Shown here in pieces: positions 13 through 63,129 of a DNA stretch of 64,000 bases. Within the stretch, counting starts at the first letter, position 1; each line of letters begins with the position of its first letter. Under the pieces are notes generated by a model. That model was not told where the DNA came from. It did no database searches and worked only from the letters and a program-made list of their open reading frames with translations. Position numbers and translations under genes: made by a program. Source of the stretch: a virus (taxonomy: Duplodnaviria; Heunggongvirae; Uroviricota; Caudoviricetes); the IMG/VR virus record IMGVR_UViG_3300037419_001521, one strand, 5' to 3'.

Positions 13-3000
13 ATGCAGATTATCGCTGCTGGTGCGGGACTTGGTCCTGATTATCACCCGAATATTCCGCAGGGTGTTCCGAATGTCCCGGCGGCCCCGA
101 AGCCTGGTGTAGCTCCGGCTATTCCGAGCGGCGCTGCCACGCCTGACAATATGCTGCCTCAGCTGCTCGGTAAAACTCCGGGTCATGCTCGCGGCGGTTT
201 GATCAGCGGCGACGGTACCGATACTTCAGATTCGATTCTGTCGTTCCTGTCTCGGGACGAGTTCGTTACCCGCGCGGCGATGGTACGCAAATACGGCCTC
301 GGGTTCTTCCAGGCACTTAATGCTGGTGCGATCAATCCGGCGACGTTGCCGCGCTTCGCTACTGGCGGTGCTGTCGGTGGTGCTACGGCTGCGACCGGTC
401 CGGTTTCGGATTCGCAGGTGATTCAGCTTCTGCCGATGCAATTGACGCAGATGCAGGACACGATCAGTCAATTGGCGCGTCAGCTTCCGGCCGAGTTCCA
501 GAAGATGTACGACGCGATCGAATCCGGCACGACCAAAGCGCAGGACAAGATCGGCACCGACTGGACCGATTCCACGAACGCCTGGAAAGACACGGTGGGC
601 AATAAGTTCACCGGCGACACCGGCAAGTTGTGGGAGAAGTTCTGGAGCGATTCGCACGACACCGCGAAAACCCAGCAGGAAAAGATCGGCACCGAATGGG
701 CTGACAGCATCCTGCACTGGAGCGGCCTGATCGATACGCAAGTTATCAGCGGCCTCGGCGGGCAGTGGACCACGTTCTGGAATCAGACCAACGACACCGC
801 GAAACAGCAGCAGGATCGGATCAATTCCGGTTTCCGCGACAATCTCGCGACAGGCCTGAGGAATTCCACGGTCGGACTCGTTGCCGACGTCAATACCGAA
901 TGGTCGAAGATCGAAGGCGTATTCGCGCGGCCGGTCAACGCGATCATCGGTGTCTGGAATCAGAGCGTCGTCGGTGCTGTGCCCGGTTTGCAGCCGATGA
1001 CTCCGATTCCCGGTTTCGCCAACGGCGGCCAGCCTGACGGTTCTCCCGGCTACATCAACGGCATGGGCGGCTCTCGCGAGGATAAGCACGTCGTTGCTGT
1101 CTCCAACCGCGAGTACATCGTCAACGCCGAAGCCACGAGTCGCAACCGCGCTGTTCTGGATGCGATCAACTTCGGCGGCGAGCGCGCTGTGGTTCCGGCT
1201 TACGGGCTGGGCGGCATGACGATGGCCCACGAAGCGCCCGAGGTCCCCGGATTCTCGTTGGGCGGCATCGCTTTCCGGCACCTGCGCAAGGCTGCTGGAC
1301 TGCACTTCGCAGACGGTGGCGCTACTGATGGTTCGTCGCAGGCGGCTGTCACTCGCGCGTTGAGCTGGGCTTCGGCCCTGTCGGGTCAGCCGTACAACGC
1401 CGAGGGGTGGTTGGACTGCTCGGGCTTCATCTCGGGTGTCTACGACATGCTGCTCGGTCGCTCTCCGCACCGGGAATTCACGACGGTCGACAACTTCCGC
1501 GCGCTCGGGTTCGTGCCCGGCCGTGGCGGCATCATGGACATCGGCGTGACCCCGCTGCCTGGCAATGCTGGTCACATGGCCGCGACTCTGGCTGGGCATC
1601 GGCTCGAATCCGGCGGATCGCACGGCAACATCATGGTCGACGGTAGTGCTGTGGGCGCTGACTCCGGTCAGTTCTCCGATCACTACTACCTGCCTGGTGA
1701 GCTGTTCAGCCCGCCGTATACCGGTCCTGGGTCGAACGGCGAGGGTGGGCCGTCCGGCTCGTTTGTCGGCATGCTCGGCGGCGCTGTGACGGCTCTGGGT
1801 ACCGGTGTGCAGAACCTGTTTTCAAGCATGTTCCAGCAGATGACCGACCCGATTCTGTCGGGTATTCCAGATGTGCAGGGCGCTGGCGCTTTCCCGAAGG
1901 CGATGGCTACCAAGGTCCGGGATGCGCTGATCGGCGGAATCAAGGGCCAAGAGGCCACGATGCTGCTCGGCGGCACGATCCCGCAGGGTATGCACAAAGA
2001 GATCATCGACAAAGCCCTGGCGCTGACCAATACTCCCCCTCCCGGCTCGATCGAGGAGTGGGAGCGCGGTCTGGAAACGTTGATCACGCGGGAAAGCAAC
2101 TGGAACACCTCCGCGATCAATAATTGGGACTCCAACGCTGCTGCGGGTAATCCGTCGAAGGGTCTGGCGCAGACCACCGGCACGACATTCGACGCGTACA
2201 AGGTTGCTGGTCACGACAATATCTACGAAGGTGTGGATAACGTCGCGGCGGCGATCAACTACATCAAAGCGCGCTACGGCTCGATTTCGAATGTCCAGCA
2301 GGCTAATGCGAATATGCCCCCGGCGGGTTACGCGAACGGCACGAACAACGCCAAGAAGGGTTGGGCGTTCGTCGGCGAAAAGGGCGTCGAGCTGGTGAAT
2401 TTCGCTGGCGGCGAGACTGTTATTCCACACGAGCTGGTGCAGAAGTTGCCTCTTCAGGACAACAATGCGATGCAGCAGTTCGGGTTCGGTCCGGGCCAGC
2501 AGAATCAAACCCCCGGTTCTGCGACACCTCCGTTCGATCCGGCGCAGCTGGCGGCTCAGTCGCAATTGCAGGCCAACGCGGCCGGATTGAATTTCTTGCA
2601 GACCAGTGCCGAGGAGAACTTCCGTGGTGCGACCGGTCAGAGTTTGTTCAATTCCGATGGGTTCATTCCGGCGATCTTCAAAACCGTTCCGGGATACATG
2701 CTGAACTTGATGCAGTGGCAGCAGTCCGGTCAGCTCGGTAGGCCGTATTCGGCGCTGTCGAACGCGATCGGGTCTCAGTTGGCGGCACCGCCGACGAATC
2801 CGCTCGATCCGGGCCAGCAGGGCGTTCCGACGAATCCGCAGGGTCAGGGTCCGACGTCGATCAACCCGAACATTCCGGGTCAGCTGCGTACCGATCTGCT
2901 CAACGAGCAGAAAAACCCGGCCGATCCTGGTCAGCAAGGGGTTCCGGTCGCTCCGCAAGGTCAGCCGCCGACGAACGTGGACCCGTTGCATCCCGCGCTT

Positions 3001-3111
3001 CGGCCGGTGGATGTGCATTTCCACGTCGCGGATATGCAGGACGCGTTGCGGCAGTGGCGTCAGCATCAGCGCGAGCAGAGCCTCGGGTTCGACCCGTTCG
3101 GCGATCTGTAA
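13..3111 (+). CDS. tail tape measure protein (5' end outside window)
   Basis: 1032-aa ORF open at the window start. Repetitive Gln/Gly/Ala-rich text. Embedded NlpC/P60-like motif WLDCSGFISGVYD and transglycosylase-like motif GLAQTTGTTFDAY...AAINYIKARYG. Followed directly by tail genes. Confidence 0.85.
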   Translation: MQIIAAGAGLGPDYHPNIPQGVPNVPAAPKPGVAPAIPSGAATPDNMLPQLLGKTPGHARGGLISGDGTDTSDSILSFLSRDEFVTRAAMVRKYGLGFFQALNAGAINPATLPRFATGGAVGGATAATGPVSDSQVIQLLPMQLTQMQDTISQLARQLPAEFQKMYDAIESGTTKAQDKIGTDWTDSTNAWKDTVGNKFTGDTGKLWEKFWSDSHDTAKTQQEKIGTEWADSILHWSGLIDTQVISGLGGQWTTFWNQTNDTAKQQQDRINSGFRDNLATGLRNSTVGLVADVNTEWSKIEGVFARPVNAIIGVWNQSVVGAVPGLQPMTPIPGFANGGQPDGSPGYINGMGGSREDKHVVAVSNREYIVNAEATSRNRAVLDAINFGGERAVVPAYGLGGMTMAHEAPEVPGFSLGGIAFRHLRKAAGLHFADGGATDGSSQAAVTRALSWASALSGQPYNAEGWLDCSGFISGVYDMLLGRSPHREFTTVDNFRALGFVPGRGGIMDIGVTPLPGNAGHMAATLAGHRLESGGSHGNIMVDGSAVGADSGQFSDHYYLPGELFSPPYTGPGSNGEGGPSGSFVGMLGGAVTALGTGVQNLFSSMFQQMTDPILSGIPDVQGAGAFPKAMATKVRDALIGGIKGQEATMLLGGTIPQGMHKEIIDKALALTNTPPPGSIEEWERGLETLITRESNWNTSAINNWDSNAAAGNPSKGLAQTTGTTFDAYKVAGHDNIYEGVDNVAAAINYIKARYGSISNVQQANANMPPAGYANGTNNAKKGWAFVGEKGVELVNFAGGETVIPHELVQKLPLQDNNAMQQFGFGPGQQNQTPGSATPPFDPAQLAAQSQLQANAAGLNFLQTSAEENFRGATGQSLFNSDGFIPAIFKTVPGYMLNLMQWQQSGQLGRPYSALSNAIGSQLAAPPTNPLDPGQQGVPTNPQGQGPTSINPNIPGQLRTDLLNEQKNPADPGQQGVPVAPQGQPPTNVDPLHPALRPVDVHFHVADMQDALRQWRQHQREQSLGFDPFGDL

Positions 3112-8447: not shown

Positions 8448-8834
8448 GTGCAGAAAAAGATTGCGCGCCTGCATATCGAAGACGTTCAAGGTTACGGCAG
8501 TTACGCGCGCTGCTACGAATTGACGCCACCTATTTTCGACGGCGGGCTCGGCTATAAGTTCATGACAATCGTCGTTCATCCGAAACGCGAGCACGCCGAC
8601 GCTGAAGTGTTCGTTTTCTACGCGAACCATCTCGGGCTTCCGGCGGAGTTGTCGATGAAACGTCGCGGCGGGTCCTTCACTCCTTTGGGTTGTCCTCACG
8701 AAGCCGGTCAGCATTACCTCGACGGATGTTTCGTGTGGGCGCTGGCCTCCAATGGGTACGAAATCGAAGGCTACGGCTACAAAGCGCTTCCGGACGGCCT
8801 GGATTACGACCCGGATGACCTTCCTGATTATTGA
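8448..8834 (+). CDS. hypothetical protein (tail-associated)
   Basis: Start placed at GTG 8448 after an AAGGA RBS, just past the upstream stop. Stop overlaps the endolysin start. Confidence 0.45.
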   Translation: MQKKIARLHIEDVQGYGSYARCYELTPPIFDGGLGYKFMTIVVHPKREHADAEVFVFYANHLGLPAELSMKRRGGSFTPLGCPHEAGQHYLDGCFVWALASNGYEIEGYGYKALPDGLDYDPDDLPDY

Positions 8835-9994
8835 TGCACAACCTGGCGCTTATCGGATTGATTCTCGTTTCCGGCGTCGGGTCGGTTGTCGCGGCTATGT
8901 CCGTGGTCAGCATTCTCCAGCTCTACGACTGGATTTACGAACGTCTTTCTCCTCCAGAAGATTTATACGACAAAGGTGACATCATGGCTGTCCAGCCTAC
9001 ATATACCGAACTCGACCGGATGGGCAATTCTTGCGATTCCCGGTACGGCGCTCGGATCACCAATTTCCTGCTCCACACCGAAGAGGGCAATTCCACCGCC
9101 GAAGGTCTTGCCGCGTTCTGCAACAACACCGGCAACGGCGCGTCCTACCATTACACCGTCCGTAACGGAATCGTCTGCGACGTCGTGGATACCGATTACG
9201 CGAGCTGGTCGGTCGGTGACGCTAATTCCTACACCATCAATTTGTGTTTCGCCGGTTCTCGCGCGGCATGGAGTCGTGACCAGTGGCTGGCTATTTCCGG
9301 TGATTTGCAGATCGCTGCGTGGCTAGCGGTTCAGGATTGCAAGAAGTACGGCATCTCGACCGCTGTGATCGCGCCTCCGTACCACCGCGCGGACGGTATT
9401 TCCGACCATCGGTACGTCACCGACATCATCGGCTGGGGCACGCACACCGACGTCGGCGACAATTTCCCGTGGGACGTCTTCACCGGCTACGTCAACGGGT
9501 ACGTCAATCCCGGCCCGGTCCCGAACGCGATCAACGACAAAGCCGCGCAGGCTAGTTGGCTCGGTACTCGGATCACCGCTGGCGAAGGTGTCTGCCCCGA
9601 CAAGGTCGGCCGGTACGCGCAATTCCAGAACGGATACGTGTATTGGAGCCCGGCCACCGGCGCGCACACCGTCCCGAATTCCCTTTTCGGCAAATGGGCG
9701 ACATTGAAGTGGGAGGCCGGTCTGCTCGGTTACCCGATTCTCGACAACGCGGTAGTGACCGGCGGCGAATGCCAAGCCTTTCAGGACGGCTGCCTCTACC
9801 ACGAAGACGGTAAGCCTGTCGTCGCTGTCCACGGCGCGATTCTGAATTCGTGGGCGAAGGCCGGTTACGAAAAGTCTCCGCTCGGCTGGCCGATTACCGA
9901 TGAAACTCCGTTCGGCGACGGCGTCGTGCAGCAGTTCGACCACGGAAAGATTTATTGGAGCCCGTCGGGCATTGTGACGATCAAGGATCAGTAG
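8831..9994 (+). CDS. endolysin: N-acetylmuramoyl-L-alanine amidase (PGRP/Amidase_2-like) with two C-terminal LGFP repeats; possible SAR N-terminus
   Basis: Amidase_2-like segment (ITNFLLHTEEGNS..SYHYTV..). Two LGFP repeats (LGYPILD.., PLGWPITDE..). N-terminal 30 aa are Gly/Ala/Ser-rich and hydrophobic (LALIGLILVSGVGSVVAAMSVVSIL). Alternative start ATG 8983 has an AAGGTG RBS. Confidence 0.75.
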   Translation: MMHNLALIGLILVSGVGSVVAAMSVVSILQLYDWIYERLSPPEDLYDKGDIMAVQPTYTELDRMGNSCDSRYGARITNFLLHTEEGNSTAEGLAAFCNNTGNGASYHYTVRNGIVCDVVDTDYASWSVGDANSYTINLCFAGSRAAWSRDQWLAISGDLQIAAWLAVQDCKKYGISTAVIAPPYHRADGISDHRYVTDIIGWGTHTDVGDNFPWDVFTGYVNGYVNPGPVPNAINDKAAQASWLGTRITAGEGVCPDKVGRYAQFQNGYVYWSPATGAHTVPNSLFGKWATLKWEAGLLGYPILDNAVVTGGECQAFQDGCLYHEDGKPVVAVHGAILNSWAKAGYEKSPLGWPITDETPFGDGVVQQFDHGKIYWSPSGIVTIKDQ

Positions 9995-10991: not shown

Positions 10992-11309
10992 GTGACTACC
11001 GGCCTCGCTACAGCGATCCTGACGTTGCTTGTCGGGAGTGACATCCTGCAAGTACTCGCCAGTCTGTGGGCTACCCGGCGCAAACGTGGGGCTGATACCG
11101 CAAGCGAATTAGCTAAGAACGCATTAGCGCAGGTGACCAGCCTGCAAGAGCGCTACGGCGCAATGGAGCGTAAATACGATTCGCTCGAGGAGGATATCCG
11201 GAAATTCCGGGAGGCACTTTATCCACACCAGCGGTGGGACATGCTCGCCCACAAGGAGGCGCTGAAAAGTGATCCCAATTTCCCGTCCCCGCCCGAGTTG
11301 TTCATCTGA
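10992..11309 (+). CDS. membrane protein with N-terminal TM and coiled coil (lysis-associated)
   Basis: GTG start 1 nt after the holin stop. N-terminal TM segment followed by a charged coiled-coil region. Confidence 0.4.
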   Translation: MTTGLATAILTLLVGSDILQVLASLWATRRKRGADTASELAKNALAQVTSLQERYGAMERKYDSLEEDIRKFREALYPHQRWDMLAHKEALKSDPNFPSPPELFI

Positions 11310-11346
11310 GCGCCCGCACACCCCTATTCATCAGAACTGAGATTTC

Positions 11347-11739
11347 ATGTCATACGATTCCAATACCGGTATCCGTGACGGTCAGCCTTTCGAATTCAAG
11401 GCCGCTGCCGCCGAGACCGCTTCCACCACCCACGCTGTCGCGCACCTCACCGGGGCGTCCGTCGCTTCGATCACCGTCAAGGTCACCGCCGCGTCCGGCA
11501 CCACTCCGACTCTGCTCGTCACTGTCGAGGGCTCCGACGACGGCAGCACTTGGTACACCCTCGGCCAGATCGGCGCGAACGGTAGCGCTGTCGGTGCCAC
11601 TGCGACCGCCCCGACGAACTTCACCACCTCTGCGACCGGCCGAGGCGCTTTCGTGGTCCCCGAGTTCATCCGGACGCGCTCTACGATCGGCGGCACCACC
11701 CCGAGCTTCACCTATTCGGTCGAGGCCGTTCTGTCCTGA
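11347..11739 (+). CDS. hypothetical Ser/Thr/Gly-rich protein
   Basis: 130-aa ORF with GC-rich third codon positions. Followed by a strong terminator. Confidence 0.45.
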   Translation: MSYDSNTGIRDGQPFEFKAAAAETASTTHAVAHLTGASVASITVKVTAASGTTPTLLVTVEGSDDGSTWYTLGQIGANGSAVGATATAPTNFTTSATGRGAFVVPEFIRTRSTIGGTTPSFTYSVEAVLS

Positions 11740-11750
11740 TGTCCAACCTA

Positions 11751-11800
11751 AGAACCCCCCCGGCCTCAGTAGTTATCTACCGGCCGGGGGGGTTCTTTTC
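11751..11800 (+). terminator. intrinsic terminator T0 (first unit of the hairpin array)
   Basis: AGAACCCCCCCGGCC / GGCCGGGGGGGTTCT inverted repeat followed by TTTTCG. Confidence 0.7.
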
Positions 11801-11904
11801 GTTGACCGAAACTTGCTACCACGCGCACTTCGGTCGTCCCGCCCGCCACATCCCATCGCGTCGAGTCGGGACACTCACCATACAGTCTCCGACACCCTCG
11901 GGTC

Positions 11905-11941
11905 CACCGGATTGACCCCCTCGCAACGCATCCGGTAGCCT
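11905..11941 (+). promoter_or_regulatory. promoter-like P0 (-10 TAGCCT at 11936-11941)
   Basis: CCCTCGCAACGCATCCGGTAGCCTGACGGCG is homologous to the P1 block. The -10 fits TANNNT. Confidence 0.4.
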
Positions 11942-12043
11942 GACGGCGAACGAGGGTTCGGACAGCTACATGAGGCCGAGGGCCAGCAGGACGATGCACG
12001 TTTCCGCCAGGACCGAAGTCGCATCCCGACCAGTTCACGAGGT

Positions 12044-12098
12044 AGACCCCCGGTATCGGTGAAGTTATCTGTCCTTCATCGCCGCCGGGGGTCTTTTC
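12044..12098 (+). terminator. terminator T1
   Basis: AGACCCCCGG ... CCGGGGGTCTTTTCG. Stem extended by TATCGGTGAAG / CTTCATCG. Confidence 0.65.
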
Positions 12099-12099
12099 G

Positions 12100-12136
12100 C
12101 GTATCCCCCTGCGACGCAGCAACTTCCTGGTATCCT
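12100..12136 (+). promoter_or_regulatory. promoter-like P1 (extended -10 TGGTATCCT)
   Basis: TGnTANNNT extended -10 at 12128-12136, about 30 nt after the T1 T-tract. Confidence 0.45.
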
Positions 12137-12244
12137 GACGGCGTGTCTCCGATAGGCACTGCGTGCGACCTGCCCGACCGGATATATTTCCGGCCCGTCA
12201 GGACCGACTAGTTGATGATGAGGGCGGGCACTTCGCACTAAGGG

Positions 12245-12293
12245 AGACCCCCGGCTGTGAACTGCGAACAACTCTCCAGTCGGGGGTCTTTTC
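12245..12293 (+). terminator. terminator T2
   Basis: AGACCCCCGGCTG ... CAGTCGGGGGTCTTTTC. Confidence 0.65.
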
Positions 12294-12299
12294 ATGAAT

Positions 12300-12331
12300 T
12301 CGCCTGCGCCGCAGCAGGTTCCTGGTATTCT
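12300..12331 (+). promoter_or_regulatory. promoter-like P2 (extended -10 TGGTATTCT)
   Basis: GCGCCGCAGCAGGTTCCTGGTATTCTGA is homologous to P1. Confidence 0.45.
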
Positions 12332-12426
12332 GATGAGGTGCCCCAGATGGGTACACGGCCTATCTTCCCGTTCAAGCGCATCTGTAATCGACAACCGAGC
12401 CGAGCGGGCTCTGGCCATCATGAGGG

Positions 12427-12476
12427 AGACCCCCGGTGTGTGGACGCAATGCCCGCTTTCGGCCGGGGGTCTTTTC
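12427..12476 (+). terminator. terminator T3
   Basis: AGACCCCCGG ... GGCCGGGGGTCTTTTC. Confidence 0.65.
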
Positions 12477-12479
12477 ATA

Positions 12480-12509
12480 TTGACTGCCCCGCAACACTTC
12501 CGATAACCT
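12480..12509 (+). promoter_or_regulatory. promoter-like P3 (-10 TAACCT)
   Basis: CCGCAACACTTCCGATAACCTGACA is a degenerate copy of the P1 block. Confidence 0.35.
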
Positions 12510-12550
12510 GACACTGCTTGTCTCCGTTCGCTCGGATCAGGCGTCGCACA

Positions 12551-12604
12551 AGACCCCCGGTTCGATGAAGATCCCTATGCCTTCATCGAACCGGGGGTCT
12601 TTTC
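12551..12604 (+). terminator. terminator T4
   Basis: Perfect 16-bp stem CCCCGGTTCGATGAAG / CTTCATCGAACCGGGG followed by TCTTTTCG. Confidence 0.7.
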
Positions 12605-12605
12605 G

Positions 12606-12640
12606 TGTATCCACGCGCAGCGCAGTGCTTCTGGTAGACT
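12606..12640 (+). promoter_or_regulatory. promoter-like P4 (extended -10 TGGTAGACT)
   Basis: CGCGCAGCGCAGTGCTTCTGGTAGACTCGGA is homologous to P1. Confidence 0.45.
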
Positions 12641-12684
12641 CGGAGTATCAGCACAGTTACGCTGATCTGAAGGAGAACCCGCAG

Positions 12685-12750
12685 GTGTGGGTTGTGCTCA
12701 TGGAGCACATCCGCCAGTGCGCGGAGTACAGCCGCCGCATTGACGCATGA
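12685..12750 (+). CDS. possible 21-aa micro-ORF inside array unit 4
   Basis: AAGGAGAA RBS 9 nt before GTG 12685 (VWVVLMEHIRQCAEYSRRIDA). Stop falls inside the T5 hairpin. Not conserved in other units. Confidence 0.25.
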   Translation: MWVVLMEHIRQCAEYSRRIDA

Positions 12751-12793
12751 CCCCCGGTTTCGGTAGCTGCCCTACTGGAGCCGGGGGTTTTTC
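12749..12793 (+). terminator. terminator T5
   Basis: GACCCCCGG ... CCGGGGGTTTTTC. Confidence 0.6.
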
Positions 12794-12878
12794 GGTATCA
12801 TTGCGACCGGCTGCTCATCAGATATGCGGCGGCCCGACGTGAGATCAAAAGCCCTCGGCGCAGGGTTCTCACACCTTC

Positions 12879-12934
12879 AGACCCCCGGTATCGGTGGAGC
12901 ACACGCCCGCTTCATCGCCGCCGGGGGTCTTTTC
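12879..12934 (+). terminator. terminator T6
   Basis: AGACCCCCGGTATCGGTGGAG ... CTTCATCGCCGCCGGGGGTCTTTTCG. Near-copy of T1. Confidence 0.65.
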
Positions 12935-13503
12935 GTGTGTTACAGTCCTAGATACAAGTCGGCCCCGGAAGGTGCTCCAACACCAACCAGGGCCTGGGTG
13001 AGAATCTAGACCGAGGCAGATTCAGCACCGTAGGACCAGATCCTACCAATGATTCTGGCTATCAGCCAATCTCTCCCACTTGCGTCACTGACGCGTGTCT
13101 GCGTGCTGCGACCCGCCGTTCCGGTATGGGCGAGCCCGTCGTGTGTCGGTGACTGCTGCCCGCACGACGGAAGGGAGATTCATTCGCGCCTTGACGACAG
13201 GCGTTATAGGCACGTTCGCCTCAAACCAACAGCCCCGGTAGATGTCTCTAACGAAAGCCTGCGGTACCGGTCGCAGGGCCGTCGACCTGGCCTGATCAGC
13301 TGCGTCGCCGGTGAACTGAAGCCTTGCGCCCACCCGGACGTGAGGCTATCGGCGCTGGGTTGGCAAGCGGAGACGGACAATTGGGATGGCACGGCCTGGG
13401 ATGGCCAACTTGACAAGCATTTATTCCTATCCAGACCCCAGCCCTTGTCCGCTTCGATCGAATACAGTTATAAATGGCTAACAGTCAGCGAAAGGACTGA
13501 GAC

Positions 13504-13866
13504 GTGACCAGATCGGTCAAATTCAATCGACGCTCCCCGCACCAGCGACCCACTACCCCCTGCTTGTGGTGTGGCACGGAAGTACGCGGAGGGCAGGCAT
13601 CCTATTGCCATGACACTCACCGCGAAGCCGCACGCAAAGCTCGTCGCCGCCGCAAAGATTGGAAGAACGGCGGCCTGACCGGATGCGACATGCCGGACGA
13701 GCCCAGTTACGCCGACCGGGGGCTAGCCGTCAGCGCCAGCCGTGCCAGCGGGCTCGAGATCTTCGTCTGCAAGTGCGGAGAGTACCACGTCGTTCCTGTT
13801 GGGGCCGGAGGTGAATCGCCGGAGTTTTACACATGGAAGCCGAACCCTAATAGACGTCAGGAGTAG
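13504..13866 (+). CDS. hypothetical zinc-ribbon protein
   Basis: 120-aa ORF with CLWCG...CHDTH and CKCGEYH motifs. Confidence 0.45.
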   Translation: MTRSVKFNRRSPHQRPTTPCLWCGTEVRGGQASYCHDTHREAARKARRRRKDWKNGGLTGCDMPDEPSYADRGLAVSASRASGLEIFVCKCGEYHVVPVGAGGESPEFYTWKPNPNRRQE

Positions 13867-13974
13867 GCAAGCCTGAGTTGGGGTTGATTTGTGGGCAACA
13901 CTGGGTATCCGTGGGGTGTAACACCCTAACCTCACTTACGATTCAAGCGATGACTGAACACACAGGAGATCAGC

Positions 13975-14526
13975 ATGGCAAAGAAGGTGATCGTCACTCA
14001 TCAGGCGATCGACGATCTAGACGGCAAAGAGCTAGGCCCGGAAGACGACGGTAAGACCGTTCACTGGTCCATCGAAGGGGAACACCTCGAGATGGAGCTG
14101 TCCGAGGCCAACAGGCAGCTATTCCTCGCCGACATGGAGAAGTGGAGACGTATCTCCCGACCGGATGGTGCACCTCGGCGCAAAGACGAAGCCGCTAAGC
14201 CGATCAGCACTACAACAGGCCCACTCGGGGAGCTTCTGCCGGATGCCAAACGCGTTGCCCCCCAAGGCAAAAAGGCTAAGGCGGCACCGACAGGCAAGGC
14301 CAAACGAGATAAGACCAGATGGCGTGTCGGCATCCGCACCTGGGCCGCAGAGAACGGTATCGACTGCCCCGCGACGGGCCGTGTGCCGAGGACAGTCACG
14401 GACGCTTGGGACAGAGCGCATCCAAAAGAAGCGGCAGCGATCCACAAAAAGGTGGCAGCCGCCAAAGGCGCAAAAGAGCACGACCTACTCAGCATGGATG
14501 AAGACAGCGAGGACGCAGCAGCATGA
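13975..14526 (+). CDS. Lsr2-like nucleoid-associated DNA-binding protein
   Basis: N-terminus MAKKVIVTHQAIDDLDGKELG..TVHWSIEGEHLEMELSEAN matches the Lsr2 dimerisation domain. C-terminus IRTWAAENGIDCPATGRVPRTVTDAWDRAH matches the Lsr2 RGR DNA-binding motif. AGGAG RBS. Confidence 0.75.
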   Translation: MAKKVIVTHQAIDDLDGKELGPEDDGKTVHWSIEGEHLEMELSEANRQLFLADMEKWRRISRPDGAPRRKDEAAKPISTTTGPLGELLPDAKRVAPQGKKAKAAPTGKAKRDKTRWRVGIRTWAAENGIDCPATGRVPRTVTDAWDRAHPKEAAAIHKKVAAAKGAKEHDLLSMDEDSEDAAA

Positions 14527-15092
14527 CGAACAATCGAGTGAAGAGCGCCATCCCCTCCGGGATCAAGTGCCGAAGGAACGGGCAGCATACCTGGGACGAG
14601 ACCGGTGACGCGGGCATAGAAATCAAGGGGGACGCCGCGCTCTACATCCGATTCAAGTGCCTCAACAACTGCGGCGGAATCAAAACGAGACGCTGGACCG
14701 CAGACGGCGTGCGCGCTACCTGGGAAGAGTCCGCAGCAGACAAGATCACCTACACCGACCCCAGCTACCTGCTGAAGAAGACCGCCGACGAAGATATCGA
14801 CGAACTCAAAGGCGCGCTCCAGACCGCGATCAGCCAGGCGGTGGTTCAGATGTGCGACCCGAAGGGCACGCTGTCGAAGCCCACCAAGAAGACTCCAGCC
14901 AAGAAGACGGCCGCCAAGAAGGTCACAGCTAAGACGGTCACGGCCAAGAAGGTCGCCGAGGCGGAGCCATTGAAGCGCGCCAGTGAGCGCAAGCCTGCGG
15001 CCCGAACCTCCCGCAAGCCGGTGGAGCCGGTCGGCGGCCGGAAGACTGCCGCGAAGCAGCCGACGAGTAGACGCGCCAAGCAGTCGGCGTAA
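14523..15092 (+). CDS. DNA-binding protein with histone H1/HupB-like Lys/Ala-rich tail
   Basis: C-terminal PTKKTPAKKTAAKKVTAKTVTAKKVAE repeats. ATGA overlap with the Lsr2-like gene. Confidence 0.55.
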   Translation: MTNNRVKSAIPSGIKCRRNGQHTWDETGDAGIEIKGDAALYIRFKCLNNCGGIKTRRWTADGVRATWEESAADKITYTDPSYLLKKTADEDIDELKGALQTAISQAVVQMCDPKGTLSKPTKKTPAKKTAAKKVTAKTVTAKKVAEAEPLKRASERKPAARTSRKPVEPVGGRKTAAKQPTSRRAKQSA

Positions 15093-15095
15093 AGC

Positions 15096-15147
15096 AAAAC
15101 CCCCGGCTCCTGCGGATCGATTGAGATCCTGTGGAACACCGGGGGTT
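15096..15147 (-). terminator. stem-loop terminator serving the leftward block (possibly bidirectional)
   Basis: AAAACCCCCGGCTCC...CACCGGGGGTT. On the minus strand it is followed by a TTTTGCTTT tract. Confidence 0.55.
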
Positions 15148-54422: not shown

Positions 54423-54602
54423 ATGTCCGACAAGTTCCTAACCCGAGCGCAAGTTGCCGAAAGGCTTGATCTCGCACCAAAAACCCTTGCCAACTGGGCA
54501 TCTGCTGGCAAGGGGCCGAGGTGCATTCGCCTCGCTGGCGGTGCCGTCCGGTATCCGCGCGAGGAGTACGAAGCCTGGGAGCAGCAGCAGCTCACCGCAT
54601 AA
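54423..54602 (+). CDS. xis: excisionase-like HTH protein (59 aa)
   Basis: MSDKFLTRAQVAERLDLAPKTLANWASAGKGP is a MerR/Xis-type HTH. Lies directly upstream of int. Confidence 0.6.
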   Translation: MSDKFLTRAQVAERLDLAPKTLANWASAGKGPRCIRLAGGAVRYPREEYEAWEQQQLTA

Positions 54603-54616
54603 GAAAGAGATCCGCA

Positions 54617-55723
54617 ATGGCAAGCGTCTGGATTCAGCCGAAAAACGGAAAATACCTGGTCCGCTGGTATGTCGACGACCCGAAGGCCGAGAAGTCGGAG
54701 ACCTTCACCAAGCTGGGGAATACGAAGACTCCCGGCACGGCGAAGTACCGCCAGCGCGAGCTGGAAGAACAGCTAGCCAAGGGGACGTACGTCGACCCAA
54801 AGCTCGGAAAGCAGAAACTTGGTGCGGTCGTTGACAAGTGGGCGGCTCGCGCCAACGTCGAGAGCACCGAGGATATTCGCCAGTCATTCCGCAATGACCT
54901 CGGCGACTTGGCTGGAATGGCCGTTGATGACATCCGGGCTCCACATGTGCGCGACTGGCTTGATGTTCTGCGCAACGGCCGTCCATGGGCCGGAGGAACG
55001 GCTCTCGCTCCCGGCACGGTGAAGCGCCGCCTCGACATGCTGAAAACCGTGCTCAACCAGCTGGTTTCCGATGAAGTCCTGGTGAAGAATCACGCGGCGA
55101 ACGTGAAGGCCCCGCCGGTCAGTTCGGTTGTGCTGCCGGAAGATTTGATGACCCTCTCCGACGCCCAGATCATCCTCAAGGAGGCCCGCGACAGCCGACT
55201 GAGGGCGATGTGCTCGGTGTCGATGAAATGCGGTCTACGGCCCGCTGAGGTGGCAGGACTACGCGTCCGGGACATCCTGGTCGACGCGTGCTCTATCGCG
55301 GTCATGCAGCAGATCACCCGCAGGCGAGTGGCGACAAGCGTACTGAAGACGGAGACGTCGCGTCGAATCATTGCAGCACCGGCCGATCTCATCGCCGATC
55401 TCACGCCGTTCATGCAGGGCAAAGGGCTCGACGATCTGCTGTTCACTACCGCGAACAACCGGCCGTACAGCAGCAAGGATCTCGGCGATTGGCTCGCCCG
55501 CCGGACGGTCAGTGCGGGGCTGCCGCGTCAGTTCACCTGGAAGGACTTCCGGCACTTCTACGCGTCCTGCCTGATCTTTCAGGGGATCAACGTGAAGACC
55601 GTGCAGAAGAGCATGGGACACGCCTCGGCTTCGATCACTCTGAACGTTTACACGCACCTGTGGCCGAACCAGGAAGCGGCGGTCAGGAGCGCGGTCGAGG
55701 ACATCTGGGGCTTGGCAGCCTAA
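54617..55723 (+). CDS. int: tyrosine integrase
   Basis: SAM-like N-domain. Catalytic C-domain with R...HxxR...Y (FRHFYASCL...LNVYTHL). AAGAAAGAG RBS. Confidence 0.85.
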   Translation: MASVWIQPKNGKYLVRWYVDDPKAEKSETFTKLGNTKTPGTAKYRQRELEEQLAKGTYVDPKLGKQKLGAVVDKWAARANVESTEDIRQSFRNDLGDLAGMAVDDIRAPHVRDWLDVLRNGRPWAGGTALAPGTVKRRLDMLKTVLNQLVSDEVLVKNHAANVKAPPVSSVVLPEDLMTLSDAQIILKEARDSRLRAMCSVSMKCGLRPAEVAGLRVRDILVDACSIAVMQQITRRRVATSVLKTETSRRIIAAPADLIADLTPFMQGKGLDDLLFTTANNRPYSSKDLGDWLARRTVSAGLPRQFTWKDFRHFYASCLIFQGINVKTVQKSMGHASASITLNVYTHLWPNQEAAVRSAVEDIWGLAA

Positions 55724-62876: not shown

Positions 62877-62976
62877 CCCGTGCTATTCTAGACGAGCGAG
62901 GCCATGGAGAAGCTTCCTTCTATACTTCATTTGGCGAAAAATCAGCGTCTCCGCCTTCCTCGCACCGTCATCGAGA

Positions 62977-63014
62977 AAACCCCGGGTTCTTTGTCCGAGA
63001 CTCGGGGTTTTTTC
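62977..63014 (+). terminator. intrinsic terminator after the 721-aa gene
   Basis: AAAACCCCGGG...CCGAGACTCGGGGTTTTTTC. Confidence 0.6.
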
Positions 63015-63083: not shown

Positions 63084-63129
63084 AAAAAAACCCCCGAAGC
63101 TGCACGTGAGCCTCGGGGGTTTTTGTTTT
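63084..63129. terminator. bidirectional terminator
   Basis: A7-CCCCCGAAG...CCTCGGGGG-TTTTTGTTTTG. The A-tract and T-tract flank a GC stem. Serves convergent genes. Confidence 0.6.

What the first reader, a model, noticed from the sequence alone, without database searches (positions are those of the whole stretch)
11751..12940. Tandem array of seven terminator hairpins interleaved with extended -10 promoter motifs between the lysis cassette and the early genes
A 1.2-kb stretch with no credible protein-coding potential holds seven copies of a GC-clamp stem-loop (gACCCCCGG..25-40 nt loop..CCGGGGGTCTTTTC), each ending in a T-tract. Five of them are followed 25-35 nt later by a conserved block (GCGACGCAGCA..TTCC TGGTATCCT GA, with variants TGGTATTCT, TGGTAGACT, TAACCT, TAGCCT) that fits the actinobacterial extended -10 consensus TGnTANNNT. 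This would yield five to six autonomous roughly 90-170-nt transcription units (promoter, variable body, terminator) in tandem. That is neither a CRISPR array (the repeats are inverted and the spacing is irregular) nor a tRNA array (no T-loop or acceptor motifs). The bodies differ but share an AGGGAG box just 5' of the hairpin. Possible roles are a small-RNA battery (decoy or anti-defence RNAs, immunity-related sRNAs) or a multi-terminator insulator between late and early transcription. One unit carries a 21-aa micro-ORF with a perfect AAGGAG RBS (12685-12750).
Basis: seen in the sequence. Interest (0 to 1): 0.85.

Follow-up and report, generated by a model that had tools for sequence, protein, structure and literature searches.

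The report
Tandem small-RNA gene array in phage
A temperate actinobacterial phage carries, right after its late genes, six back-to-back mini-genes (promoter, about 90-150 bases of mostly non-coding RNA, strong terminator), a phage-borne battery of small RNAs that is conserved but reshuffled in its closest relatives and whose targets are still unknown.

Summary
Seven strong + strand hairpins with U-tracts lie at 11750-12935. The motif occurs 7 times there against 0.09 expected, and nowhere else in the 64 kb.

Six hairpins are followed by a promoter-like block found only here: TTGACY-18-TAnnnT, TGGTAnnCT, or TATCAT alone.

The region is non-coding:
- Gene callers call nothing.
- No mechanical ORF has a family hit.
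- Indels against orthologues break every frame.
- The exception is a possible 21-aa micro-ORF in unit 5.

Two related metagenomic phages carry their own versions of the array, with at least 4 and 5 hairpins. A Nocardia jiangxiensis prophage has a single unit in the same place.

Evidence for function:
- Promoters are 93-95% identical between phages whose synonymous sites are 62-74% identical.
- Some bodies are 85-89% conserved; others are replaced.
- The hairpins pair better as + strand RNA.
- 11 of 12 units start with a stem-loop at the predicted +1.

Best reading (confidence 0.55): a tandem array of autonomous small-RNA genes, in effect non-coding morons or sibling sRNAs, which also insulates a downstream conserved leader and Lsr2-like operon from late transcription. 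There are no transcript data and no targets. I found no Rfam family and no published equivalent. Novelty: a new variant of a known kind.

The parts
11347..11739 (+). Last gene of the rightward late operon (130 aa, unknown function). It is the anchor used to find related loci.
   Evidence: Gene called. Weak PHROG and Pfam hits only. Homologues at 88, 82, 67 and 67% identity precede the arrays or single units in L270, L271, L272 and L001.
11750..11802 (+). HP1: terminator of the late operon (AAGAACCCCCCCGGCC...GGCCGGGGGGGTTCTTTTC), 10 nt after the stop codon.
   Evidence: 16-bp perfect arms (I7). dG -40 kcal/mol.
11912..11941 (+). P1: TTGACC-18 nt-TAGCCT, with the CGCAAC box in the spacer.
11948..12099 (+). 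Unit 1: predicted RNA of about 152 nt. It has a helix at the 5' end (GAAC...GUUC), a CACGAGGU box, and terminator HP2 (12044-12094).
12105..12136 (+). P2: CGCAGC box plus extended -10 TGGTATCCT (12128-12136).
   Evidence: 83% identical to the corresponding region in L271 and L270.
12143..12294 (+). Unit 2: predicted RNA of about 152 nt. It has a 5' stem-loop (GUGUCU-CCGAU-AGGCAC), a structured body (z = -2.5), an AAGGGAG box, and terminator HP3 (12245-12289).
12300..12331 (+). P3: CGCAGC box plus extended -10 TGGTATTCT (12323-12331).
   Evidence: 93-94% identical to L270 and L271, where neutral sites are 62% identical.
12338..12477 (+). Unit 3: predicted RNA of about 140 nt. It has a 5' stem-loop (GUGCCC-CAGAU-GGGUAC), a CAUGAGGGAG box, and terminator HP4 (12427-12472). 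It is the orthologue of unit 1 in L270 and L271.
12480..12509 (+). P4: TTGACT-18 nt-TAACCT, with the CGCAAC box.
   Evidence: The L159 variant has TTGACC here.
12516..12605 (+). Unit 4: predicted RNA of about 90 nt, with terminator HP5 (12550-12601, a perfect 21-bp stem).
   Evidence: I2.
12611..12640 (+). P5: CGCAGT box plus extended -10 TGGTAGACT (12632-12640).
12647..12794 (+). Unit 5: predicted RNA of about 148 nt with a structured body (z = -2.6). It has the AAGGAG RBS (12670-12675), the 21-codon micro-ORF 12685-12750, and terminator HP6 (12749-12790).
   Evidence: GC3 of 18/21 was read from the sequence. No family hit. No orthologue in the relatives.
12797..12802 (+). P6 remnant: a TATCAT -10 element directly after the HP6 U-tract. 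The -35 and CGCAAC box are deleted; the L271 and L276 orthologues keep TTGACT-18-TATCAT.
12809..12935 (+). Unit 6: predicted RNA of about 127 nt with two body hairpins (invariant loop CAUCAGAUAU) and terminator HP7 (12879-12930). It is the most conserved unit and is present in all three array-bearing phages.
   Evidence: Body 85% identical to L271 against 62% at neutral sites.
12938..12946 (+). P7: extended -10 TGTTACAGT. Homology between the phages begins exactly here.
12953..13427 (+). Conserved, highly structured non-coding block. It is a leader or long ncRNA ahead of the orf58 / Lsr2-like / 189-aa operon. Its 5' hairpin (12960-12994) is hypervariable.
   Evidence: 88.5% identical to L271 (p = 9e-41 against 62%). 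Indels are not multiples of 3. Consensus fold -183 kcal/mol, with wobble-consistent changes. A cluster of 20 changes, some compensatory, separates it from the otherwise 99.5%-identical L155. No Rfam hit.
13690..15147 (+). Downstream operon: a 58-aa gene (13690-13866), an Lsr2-like nucleoid protein (13975-14526), a lysine-rich 189-aa protein (14523-15092), and the closing hairpin 15098-15147.

Best explanation
**What it is.** The region is a tandem array of six autonomous small-RNA genes. They sit between the terminator of the phage's late operon and a conserved leader that heads an Lsr2-like operon.

**How each unit is built (inferred).**
- A host sigma-A-type promoter: TTGACY-18-TAnnnT, or an extended -10 TGGTAnnCT.
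- A transcript of about 90-150 nt that opens with a stem-loop at +1.
- A variable body, usually with a purine-rich SD-like GAGG box.
- A strong intrinsic terminator (GACCCCCGG...CCGGGGGUCUUUUC), which also serves as the 5' boundary of the next unit.

The stem-loop at the 5' end and the terminator at the 3' end should make the RNAs stable.

**How it works (inferred).**
- The variable bodies are the working parts. They would act in trans, by base-pairing or by binding a protein, on host or phage transcripts outside the sequence I hold.
- Unit 5 may instead, or also, encode a 21-aa peptide.
- As a side effect, the stack of seven terminators insulates the downstream P7 / leader / Lsr2-like operon from late read-through.

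**How it evolves (inferred).** The array grows, shrinks and swaps units by recombination between the near-identical terminator and promoter junctions.

**Shown:** sequence architecture, strand specificity, conservation pattern, absence of coding.
**Inferred:** transcription start and stop, RNA stability, trans action.
For: **Terminators**
- Seven hairpins of -28.5 to -40.5 kcal/mol with U-tracts.
- G.U pairs make the + strand RNA fold the better one in 5 of 7 window hairpins and 8 of 9 relatives.

**Promoters**
- The only two full -35/-10 sites in 128 kb are here, as are 4 of 23 extended -10 sites.
- The composite block is unique to the array.
- A covariance model of the terminator-promoter junction scores 54 bits or more only in arrays.

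**Selection**

| Comparison | Element | Identity | Neutral (4-fold sites) | p |
|---|---|---|---|---|
| window vs L270 / L271 | promoter | 93-94% | 0.62 (vs L271) | - |
| window vs L271 | unit 6 body | 85% | 0.62 | 5e-6 |
| L270 vs L271 | unit bodies | 87-89% | 0.74 | <=0.002 |

**RNA features**
- A helix starts at the 7th nt after the -10 in 11 of 12 units, against 25% of random positions.
- The 5' stem-loop of units 2 and 3 and their orthologues is 100% paired, with two pairs changed on both sides.

**Non-coding**
- No genes called, no frame periodicity, no PHROG hit.
- Indels of 7, 1 and 4 nt in orthologues.

**Comparative series**
- One promoter-body-terminator unit sits in the same place in a Nocardia jiangxiensis prophage.
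- L272 has only a terminator there.
- L271 has 5 hairpins and L270+L276 at least 4, with partly different units.
Against: - There are no transcript data of any kind. Promoters and terminators are consensus-level predictions.
- The bodies share no common seed. The commonest 6-mers occur in only 4 of 12 units.
- No complementary target was found in the 64 kb or in 50,697 phage genomes.
- Body folding z-scores are unremarkable for 4 of 6 units.
- High identity of some bodies could reflect recent recombination in these mosaic genomes rather than selection. Local 4-fold identity ranges from 0.55 to 0.90.
- Unit 6 lacks a -35 element in this phage.
- The comparison set is three phage lineages only.
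Confidence: 0.55

Rival explanations
1. **Pure transcriptional insulator.** The hairpins are a redundant stack of terminators that stops the strong late operon from reading into the leader and Lsr2-like operon. The RNAs between them are by-products without a function of their own.
For: - HP1 sits 10 nt after the last late gene, and all seven hairpins are unidirectional + strand terminators.
- The array lies exactly between two same-strand operons.
- No targets or shared seed were found.
Against: - Relatives manage with one terminator at this position (L272, L001).
- An insulator needs no promoters, yet the promoter blocks are the best-conserved part, at 93-95% against 62-74% at neutral sites.
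- Promoters firing towards the protected operon would work against insulation.
- The bodies of unit 6 and of the L270/L271 units are conserved above the neutral level.
- 5' stem-loops are kept by compensatory change.
Confidence: 0.15
2. **Graveyard or nursery of protein-coding morons.** Each promoter-terminator cassette once carried, or still carries, a very small protein gene. Most bodies are decayed remnants, and unit 5 still encodes a 21-aa peptide.
For: - Unit 5 has a canonical AAGGAG RBS 9 nt before GTG, GC3 of 18/21, and a stop overlapping the terminator.
- SD-like GAGG boxes persist in other units.
- The cassette design equals the textbook moron: own promoter and terminator (PMC3594210).
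Against: - No ORF is conserved between orthologous units, and their indels are not multiples of three.
- Gene callers call nothing, and there are no family hits.
- In units 2 and 3 the only start codons after the SD-like box lie inside the terminator stem (read from the sequence).
- Decayed remnants would not keep promoters, 5' stem-loops and bodies above the neutral level.
Confidence: 0.12
3. **Regulated attenuation cascade.** The array is a long leader of the downstream operon. Promoters feed into terminators that are read through only when a phage antiterminator or a structural switch is active, so the short RNAs are the OFF state of a developmental switch.
For: - The units are in the same orientation as, and directly upstream of, a conserved 490-nt structured leader and the Lsr2-like operon.
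- The GGGAGA box pairs with the UCUUUU tract in the predicted folds, which could modulate termination.
- The conserved CGCARY box in the promoter spacer could be a regulator site.
Against: - No antiterminator gene or put/nut-like element was identified.
- No alternative antiterminator structure competing with the very stable (about -30 to -40 kcal/mol) hairpins is evident.
- The operon has its own promoter-like site, P7, after the last terminator.
- In L271 a reverse-strand gene separates the array from the leader.
Confidence: 0.1
4. **DNA-level element.** The inverted repeats are binding sites or cruciforms for replication, partition, packaging or a DNA-binding protein such as the neighbouring Lsr2-like protein.
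For: - GC-clamped inverted repeats cluster in a gene-free region.
- A nucleoid-protein gene lies nearby.
Against: - The stems contain G.U pairs that are C.A mismatches on the other strand, so pairing is strand-specific.
- T-tracts occur on one side only.
- Inner stems and loops differ between copies while pairing is kept.
- Lsr2 prefers AT-rich DNA (established knowledge), and this region is 60% GC.
Confidence: 0.03

Closest known systems
Multicopy ('sibling') sRNA genes, e.g. Listeria LhrC1-5, Pseudomonas PrrF1/F2, Neisseria NgncR_162/163
   Same: - Several homologous small-RNA genes lie close together, each with its own promoter and its own intrinsic terminator.
- LhrC copies each have their own promoter, and they act through short motifs including the terminator loop (PMC5880928).
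   Different: - Those are chromosomal, with 2-5 copies and near-identical bodies that share a seed (CU-rich in LhrC).
- Here the array is phage-borne, has 6 units, and the bodies are largely unrelated. The conserved parts are the promoter and terminator scaffold.
- No seed, regulator or target is known here.
Phage morons (independent promoter-gene-terminator cassettes expressed from prophages)
   Same: - Each is an autonomous transcription unit inserted between phage operons.
- Each is present or absent among close relatives, and sits at the end of the late operon (PMC3594210).
   Different: - Classic morons encode proteins, are single insertions, and often differ in GC content.
- Here the cassettes are non-coding (one possible 21-aa ORF), come six in a row, share one promoter-terminator design, and have the same GC content as the phage.
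Abundant stable non-coding RNAs of Cluster A mycobacteriophages (L5, D29, StarStuff right-end RNA)
   Same: - Actinobacteriophage non-coding regions of several hundred bases give small, stable, highly expressed RNAs of unknown function (PMC5712189).
- This shows that such phages do make sRNAs.
   Different: - Those come from one early promoter (Pleft), lack canonical terminators, and are not tandem promoter-terminator units.
- There is no sequence similarity.
- They sit at a different genome position.
Prophage sRNA islands of enterobacterial lambdoid phages (e.g. IsrK of Gifsy-1, EHEC prophage sRNAs)
   Same: - These are prophage-encoded trans-acting sRNAs at moron-type sites.
- One EHEC prophage sRNA counteracts xenogeneic silencing by H-NS (PMC13502914, listed). 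That is a loose contextual parallel to the Lsr2-like gene next to this array.
   Different: - They are single genes rather than a uniform tandem array, in different hosts, often with Hfq dependence.
- No homology.
- The link to Lsr2 here rests on gene neighbourhood alone.

Membership tests
Intrinsic (Rho-independent) terminators | GC-rich stem-loop in the RNA | tested here: met
   Seven hairpins with 16-22 pairs, dG -28.5 to -40.5 kcal/mol.
Intrinsic (Rho-independent) terminators | U-rich tract immediately 3' of the stem, on the transcribed strand only | tested here: met
   UCUUUUC or UUUUUC follows every stem, and there is no matching A-tract upstream except AAGA. G.U pairs favour the + strand.
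Intrinsic (Rho-independent) terminators | Measured termination in vivo or in vitro | not testable with these tools
   Needs Term-seq or in vitro transcription with actinobacterial RNA polymerase.
Sigma-A (sigma-70-type) promoters of Actinobacteria | -10 hexamer TAnnnT, with either a TTGACN -35 at 17-18 nt or an extended -10 TGn | tested here: met
   Met for P1 to P5 and P7. P6 has the -10 only. The consensus itself is from established knowledge of mycobacterial promoters. The generic E. coli-type scan found none, because the -10 elements are not TATAAT-like.
Sigma-A (sigma-70-type) promoters of Actinobacteria | Conservation above the neutral level in relatives | tested here: met
   93-95% identity against 62-74% at 4-fold sites.
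Sigma-A (sigma-70-type) promoters of Actinobacteria | Mapped transcription start site | not testable with these tools
   Needs 5'-end mapping.
Multicopy / sibling trans-acting sRNAs | Two or more related sRNA genes, each with its own promoter and terminator | tested here: met
   Six predicted units. Units 2 and 3 are paralogous over 74 nt at 77% identity (D2). This is prediction only.
Multicopy / sibling trans-acting sRNAs | Shared seed or body sequence among the copies | tested here: not met
   The bodies align poorly. The best shared 6-mers occur in 4 of 12 units.
Multicopy / sibling trans-acting sRNAs | Identified base-pairing targets | tested here: inconclusive
   None in the 64-kb window or in the phage database. 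The host genome and the phage left arm were not available.
Phage morons | Independent transcription unit with its own promoter and terminator, inserted between phage genes and variably present in relatives | tested here: met
   Definition from PMC3594210.
Phage morons | Carries a protein-coding gene; GC content differs from the flanks | tested here: not met
   Non-coding except for a possible 21-aa ORF. GC is 0.60-0.62, like the flanks.
CRISPR array or solitary CRISPR-repeat mimics | Direct repeats of fixed length separated by spacers of fixed length, transcribed from one leader | tested here: not met
   The repeats are inverted arms with variable inner parts. Unit spacing ranges from 128 to 330 nt, and each unit has a promoter. 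Tandem Repeats Finder was not run on the array.
tRNA / tmRNA gene array | Cloverleaf recognised by ARAGORN | tested here: not met
   No tRNA or tmRNA gene in the whole window.
Any Rfam family | Covariance-model match at or near the gathering score | tested here: not met
   The only matches are chance-level: MIR1094 at 26.8 bits against a gathering score of 80, and ftsZ-DE at 20.3 bits against 72.
Type III toxin-antitoxin RNA repeats (ToxI-like) | Head-to-tail direct repeats of about 36 nt under one promoter, directly upstream of a toxin gene | tested here: not met
   The repeat search found only the dispersed hairpin and promoter families, with no short head-to-tail repeats. Units are 90-150 nt with their own promoters, and no toxin-like gene follows.

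The most novel reading that the evidence does not exclude
The array is a fast-evolving, RNA-only targeting battery. A conserved scaffold (promoter, 5' stem-loop, GAGG box, terminator) presents hypervariable central segments. Those segments act as antisense or guide sequences against host or rival-phage transcripts, and new specificities arise by cassette swapping at the repeated terminator-promoter junctions.

**For:** the mid-body of unit 3 is only 39-45% identical between phages whose neutral sites are 62% identical, while its flanks are 85-94% identical.

**Against:** no matches to any of 50,697 phage genomes, and no partner protein is evident.
Probability: 0.1. Interest if true: 0.85.

Novelty: new variant of a known kind. 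Interest (0 to 1): 0.55.

Why it matters
- Phage-encoded small RNAs are an under-explored layer of phage-host interaction. In actinobacteriophages the few known examples have no assigned function.
- If the prediction holds, this locus packs six independently promoted sRNA genes into 1.2 kb. They share a reusable promoter-terminator scaffold, and their contents turn over between close relatives.
- That would make it a compact natural system for three questions:
  - what phage sRNAs do in Mycobacteriales hosts, which lack Hfq;
  - how sRNA genes are born, duplicated and replaced;
  - how late transcription is insulated from prophage-expressed genes such as Lsr2-like silencers.
- The scaffold (short sigma-A promoter, 5' stabilising hairpin, very strong terminator) would also be a ready-made expression cassette for synthetic RNAs in actinobacteria.

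Tried and rejected
- **Known RNA families.** Rfam at E<=1 over 11000-14000 gave only chance hits. ARAGORN found no tRNA.
- **Nucleotide similarity to sequenced phages.** None at E<=1e-5. At E<=10 there were only 24-40-nt chance hits in cyanophages and Caulobacter phages. The bodies are therefore not spacer-like copies of known phages.
- **Collection scans for the hairpin or the promoter-plus-hairpin pattern.**
  - IMG/VR gave nothing, or only the N. jiangxiensis prophage.
  - GTDB genomes gave 115 single generic terminators in many phyla, with no arrays.
  - The metagenome collection gave 35 single, apparently random hits, and it does not contain the window's own samples.
- **Targets.** blastn-short and RNAduplex of every body against the whole window found only each body's own antisense strand. 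The complements of the invariant unit 6 loops are at chance level.
- **Pairing between HP7/unit 5 and the leader hairpin.** An 8-nt complementarity (UGGAGCAC against GUGCUCCA) is dropped. It is expected by chance, and it does not co-vary in L155, where only the leader changed.
- **Protein coding.** Mechanical ORFs on both strands (149, 118, 84, 61 and 152 aa) have no PHROG hits. Gene callers skip them.
- **Analogous arrays in more distant relatives.** Endolysin-related IMG/VR loci and three Nocardia prophages have none.
- **A decayed eighth unit in the leader (13088-13200).** I suspected this by eye, but MAFFT does not support it. It is kept only as a weak lead.
- **Shared C-rich loop motifs, as in 6C or LhrC.** The loops are heterogeneous, so I did not pursue this.


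Full report
**Context**

The window is a siphovirus-type actinobacteriophage.
- Recognisable genes: tape measure protein (13-3111), minor tail proteins, an endolysin (8831-9994), DNA primase/polymerase, a ribonucleotide reductase subunit, and a tyrosine integrase at 54521-55723. The integrase indicates a temperate phage.
- It has no nucleotide match among 50,697 deposited phage genomes.
- Its proteins are at most 49% identical to those of Rhodococcus, Gordonia and Mycobacterium phages.
- Identical or 99.5%-identical copies occur on several metagenomic contigs.
- The nearest cultured relative is a prophage of Nocardia jiangxiensis NBRC 101359.
- Gene callers on those contigs call nothing between the stop of a 130-aa late gene (window 11739) and a 58-aa gene at 13690, a gene-free stretch of 1.95 kb.

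Hairpins:
- Seven hairpins lie at 11750-11797, 12044-12094, 12245-12289, 12427-12472, 12550-12601, 12749-12790 and 12879-12930.
- They fold at -28.5 to -40.5 kcal/mol, and each is followed by UCUUUUC or a close variant.
- The 3' arm plus T-tract is confined to this region apart from one unrelated site. Expected 0.09 matches.

Promoter-like blocks:
- A conserved block, CGCA[AG]Y then 8-10 nt then TAnnnT, follows five hairpins and occurs nowhere else in the window on either strand.
- Two copies are complete TTGACY-18-TAnnnT sites. These are the only two in 128 kb of both strands.
- Three copies are extended -10 sites (TGGTATCCT, TGGTATTCT, TGGTAGACT).
- A sixth unit keeps only its -10 (TATCAT, 12797-12802).
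- A seventh extended -10 (TGTTACAGT, 12938-12946) follows the last hairpin.

**It is RNA, on the + strand, and not coding**

- The stems contain G.U pairs, which would be C.A mismatches in the complementary strand. The + strand fold is the more stable one in 5 of 7 window hairpins and 8 of 9 hairpins of relatives. The two exceptions in the window are perfect palindromes.
- Codon-position GC periodicity is absent from 11775-13600, except around the micro-ORF.
- No mechanical ORF on either strand has a PHROG or Pfam match.
- Orthologous units differ by indels of 7, 1 and 4 nt.
- ARAGORN and Rfam find nothing.
- The micro-ORF of unit 5 (AAGGAG, 9 nt, GTG at 12685, stop at 12750 overlapping HP6) has GC3 of 18/21, which looks like coding sequence. 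It has no orthologue and no family hit, so it remains possible but unproven.

**Relatives**

I searched with the 130-aa protein and fetched the contigs that encode its homologues. Two further lineages with arrays came up.

| Lineage | Anchor protein identity | What follows the anchor gene |
|---|---|---|
| L271 | 82% | 5 hairpins; four promoter blocks (TGGTATCCT, TTGACT-18-TAGCCT, TTGACT-18-TATCAT, TTGACT-18-TAGATT) |
| L270 + L276 | 88% | at least 4 hairpins. L270's contig ends inside the array. L276, from the same sample, begins with a 26-nt overlap and carries the rest, so the assembly broke at the repeats |
| L001 (= L139, N. jiangxiensis) | 67% | exactly one unit: TTGACC-18-TAGCTT, about 55 nt of body, then AAGACCCCCGG...CUGGGGGUCUUUUU |
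| L272 | 67% | only the -35/CGCAAC remnant fused to a bidirectional terminator |
| More distant Nocardia prophages | <=59% (lysis-cassette protein) | no gap and no array |

- Unit content differs between the arrays. Window unit 3 is the orthologue of unit 1 in L270 and L271. Window unit 6 is the orthologue of the last unit in both. Window units 1, 2, 4 and 5 and L271 unit 4 are lineage-specific.
- Terminator inner stems are exchanged between units: L271 HPd is 96% identical to window HP2, not to HP7.
- A covariance model of the terminator-promoter junction scores 54-95 bits at every array junction. Everywhere else in 644 kb of related and control loci it scores no more than about 27 bits, on plain terminators.

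**Selection**

As a neutral yardstick I used identity at four-fold degenerate sites of the flanking orthologous genes: 0.62 for window against L271 (n = 662) and 0.74 for L270 against L271 (n = 943).

| Element | Identity | Note |
|---|---|---|
| Promoter blocks | 93-95% | |
| 3' GAGG-box segment of unit 3 | 85-90% | |
| Unit 6 body | 85% | p = 5e-6 |
| L270/L271 unit bodies | 87-89% | p <= 0.002 |
| Unit 3 5' stem-loop | 50% | still fully paired |
| Unit 3 mid-body | 39-45% | effectively replaced |

The scaffold and some bodies are therefore under constraint, while other bodies turn over. One caveat: these genomes are mosaic, and local neutral identity varies from 0.55 to 0.90, so recent exchange could inflate some of these values.

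**Transcript features**

- I took +1 as the 7th nucleotide after the -10, a rule fixed before looking. On that rule, 11 of 12 units from four phages begin with a helix of at least 4 bp within the first 3 nt. Only 25% of random window positions do so.
- For the homologous 5' stem-loop of window units 2 and 3 and the L270/L271 orthologues, all 24 cells pair. Two of six pairs changed on both sides, and slid controls pair 25-62%.
- Such 5'-terminal hairpins, together with a terminator at the 3' end, are typical of stable bacterial RNAs (established knowledge).
- Units 1, 2 and 3, and two units of L271, carry an SD-like CAYGAGG/AGGGAG box before the terminator. In the predicted folds its purines pair with the U-tract.

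**What lies downstream**

- Homology between the phages resumes exactly at TGTGTTACAGT and runs for 490 nt (12937-13427). This stretch is 88.5% identical to L271 (p = 9e-41). Its indels are not multiples of three. It ends at TTGACAAGCATTTATTCCTAT, after which the sequences diverge.
- The block folds into an extensive conserved structure (-183 kcal/mol). One long helix keeps five one-sided changes, all consistent with wobble pairing.
- Its first hairpin (12960-12994) is a hot spot. The otherwise 99.5%-identical L155 differs by 20 changes within 110 nt, including a C-G to G-C swap, and its allele resembles that of L271 and L276.
- Next come a 58-aa gene, an Lsr2-like nucleoid protein, a lysine-rich protein and a closing hairpin.
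- The array is thus wedged between the late operon and a separately promoted, probably prophage-expressed, operon.

**Interpretation**

The simplest account of all this is a tandem array of autonomous small-RNA genes built on one reusable promoter-terminator scaffold.
- The likely ancestor is a single unit, the state seen in the N. jiangxiensis prophage.
- The array was then amplified and diversified by recombination at the repeated junctions.
- The terminator stack necessarily also insulates the downstream operon.

I put 0.55 on this. The rivals are a pure insulator (0.15), decayed or miniature protein morons (0.12), an attenuation or antitermination cascade (0.10), and a DNA-level element (0.03). 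The function of the RNAs is unknown. I found no targets in the window or in phage databases, and the host genome was not available.

**Comparison with what is known**

- In design, the units equal morons: own promoter and terminator, variably present (PMC3594210). But they are non-coding and serial.
- As a gene family, they resemble multicopy sibling sRNAs such as LhrC1-5 (PMC5880928). But they lack a shared seed and are phage-borne.
- My literature searches turned up no description of a comparable phage array. That is absence in the searched library only.

I therefore class this as a new variant of a known kind. It is of moderate interest until transcripts and targets are shown.

Noticed in passing
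window 18589-18644 and 19145-19421: A second, different hairpin array. Six perfect-stem hairpins of about 50 nt have unrelated stems but a shared loop, TTTGGGTATC. Five of them lie head to tail at 54-60 nt spacing. They sit inside a 493-aa minus-strand ORF (18254-19735). In that ORF the loop reads as the peptide motif DTQ, and only residues 191-486 match a PHROG 'transposase' family. There is no Pfam hit, no tRNA and no TRF array. Whether this is a protein repeat or a structured nucleic-acid element upstream of the transposase-like gene is open.
   Followed up: partly
window 12937-13427: A 490-nt non-coding block, more conserved than the neighbouring genes (88.5% against 62% at neutral sites). 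It is strongly structured and bounded by TGTGTTACAGT and TTGACAAGCATTTATTCCTAT. It is present in five phage variants, including one (L277) with different downstream genes. No Rfam family matches.
   Followed up: partly
window 12950-13060 vs L155: A cluster of 20 substitutions or indels within 110 nt separates two phages that are 99.5% identical over 11.6 kb. The changes keep the 5' hairpin of the leader (C-G to G-C swap, shifted bulge). The L155 allele resembles that of L271 and L276, so this is probably a recombination patch at a specificity-type hairpin.
   Followed up: partly
window 13975-15092: An Lsr2-like nucleoid-associated protein (dimerisation plus DNA-binding domains) is followed by a lysine-rich, histone H1-like (HC2-type, below threshold) 189-aa protein, directly downstream of the array and leader.
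   Followed up: no
L270 end / L276 start; also L157, L158, L159: Metagenomic assemblies of this phage group tend to break inside the array. L270 ends at a terminator-promoter junction and L276 starts with the same 26 nt. The short contigs L157, L158 and L159 end at window positions near 11928, 12876 and 12612. Array copy numbers taken from assemblies are therefore lower bounds.
   Followed up: partly
L270 6356-6877, L271 6360-6881, L272 6471-6998: Relatives carry an extra PLD-like (PLDc_2) gene just before the 130-aa gene. It is absent from the window phage.
   Followed up: no
L271 8214-8393: In L271 a small reverse-strand gene (59 aa) is inserted between the last array hairpin and the conserved leader. 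This shows that the array and the leader can be physically separated.
   Followed up: no
window 11880-11885: A TACAGT hexamer, like the -10 element of P7, lies in the 110-nt spacer between HP1 and P1. It could be an additional weak promoter that reads through P1 (read from the sequence).
   Followed up: no
window 15098-15147, 25136-25173, 62976-63011, 63086-63124: Other terminator-like hairpins in the window. The first (AACCCCCGG...CCGGGGGTT, no T-tract) closes the Lsr2-like operon between convergent gene blocks. None has the promoter block.
   Followed up: no
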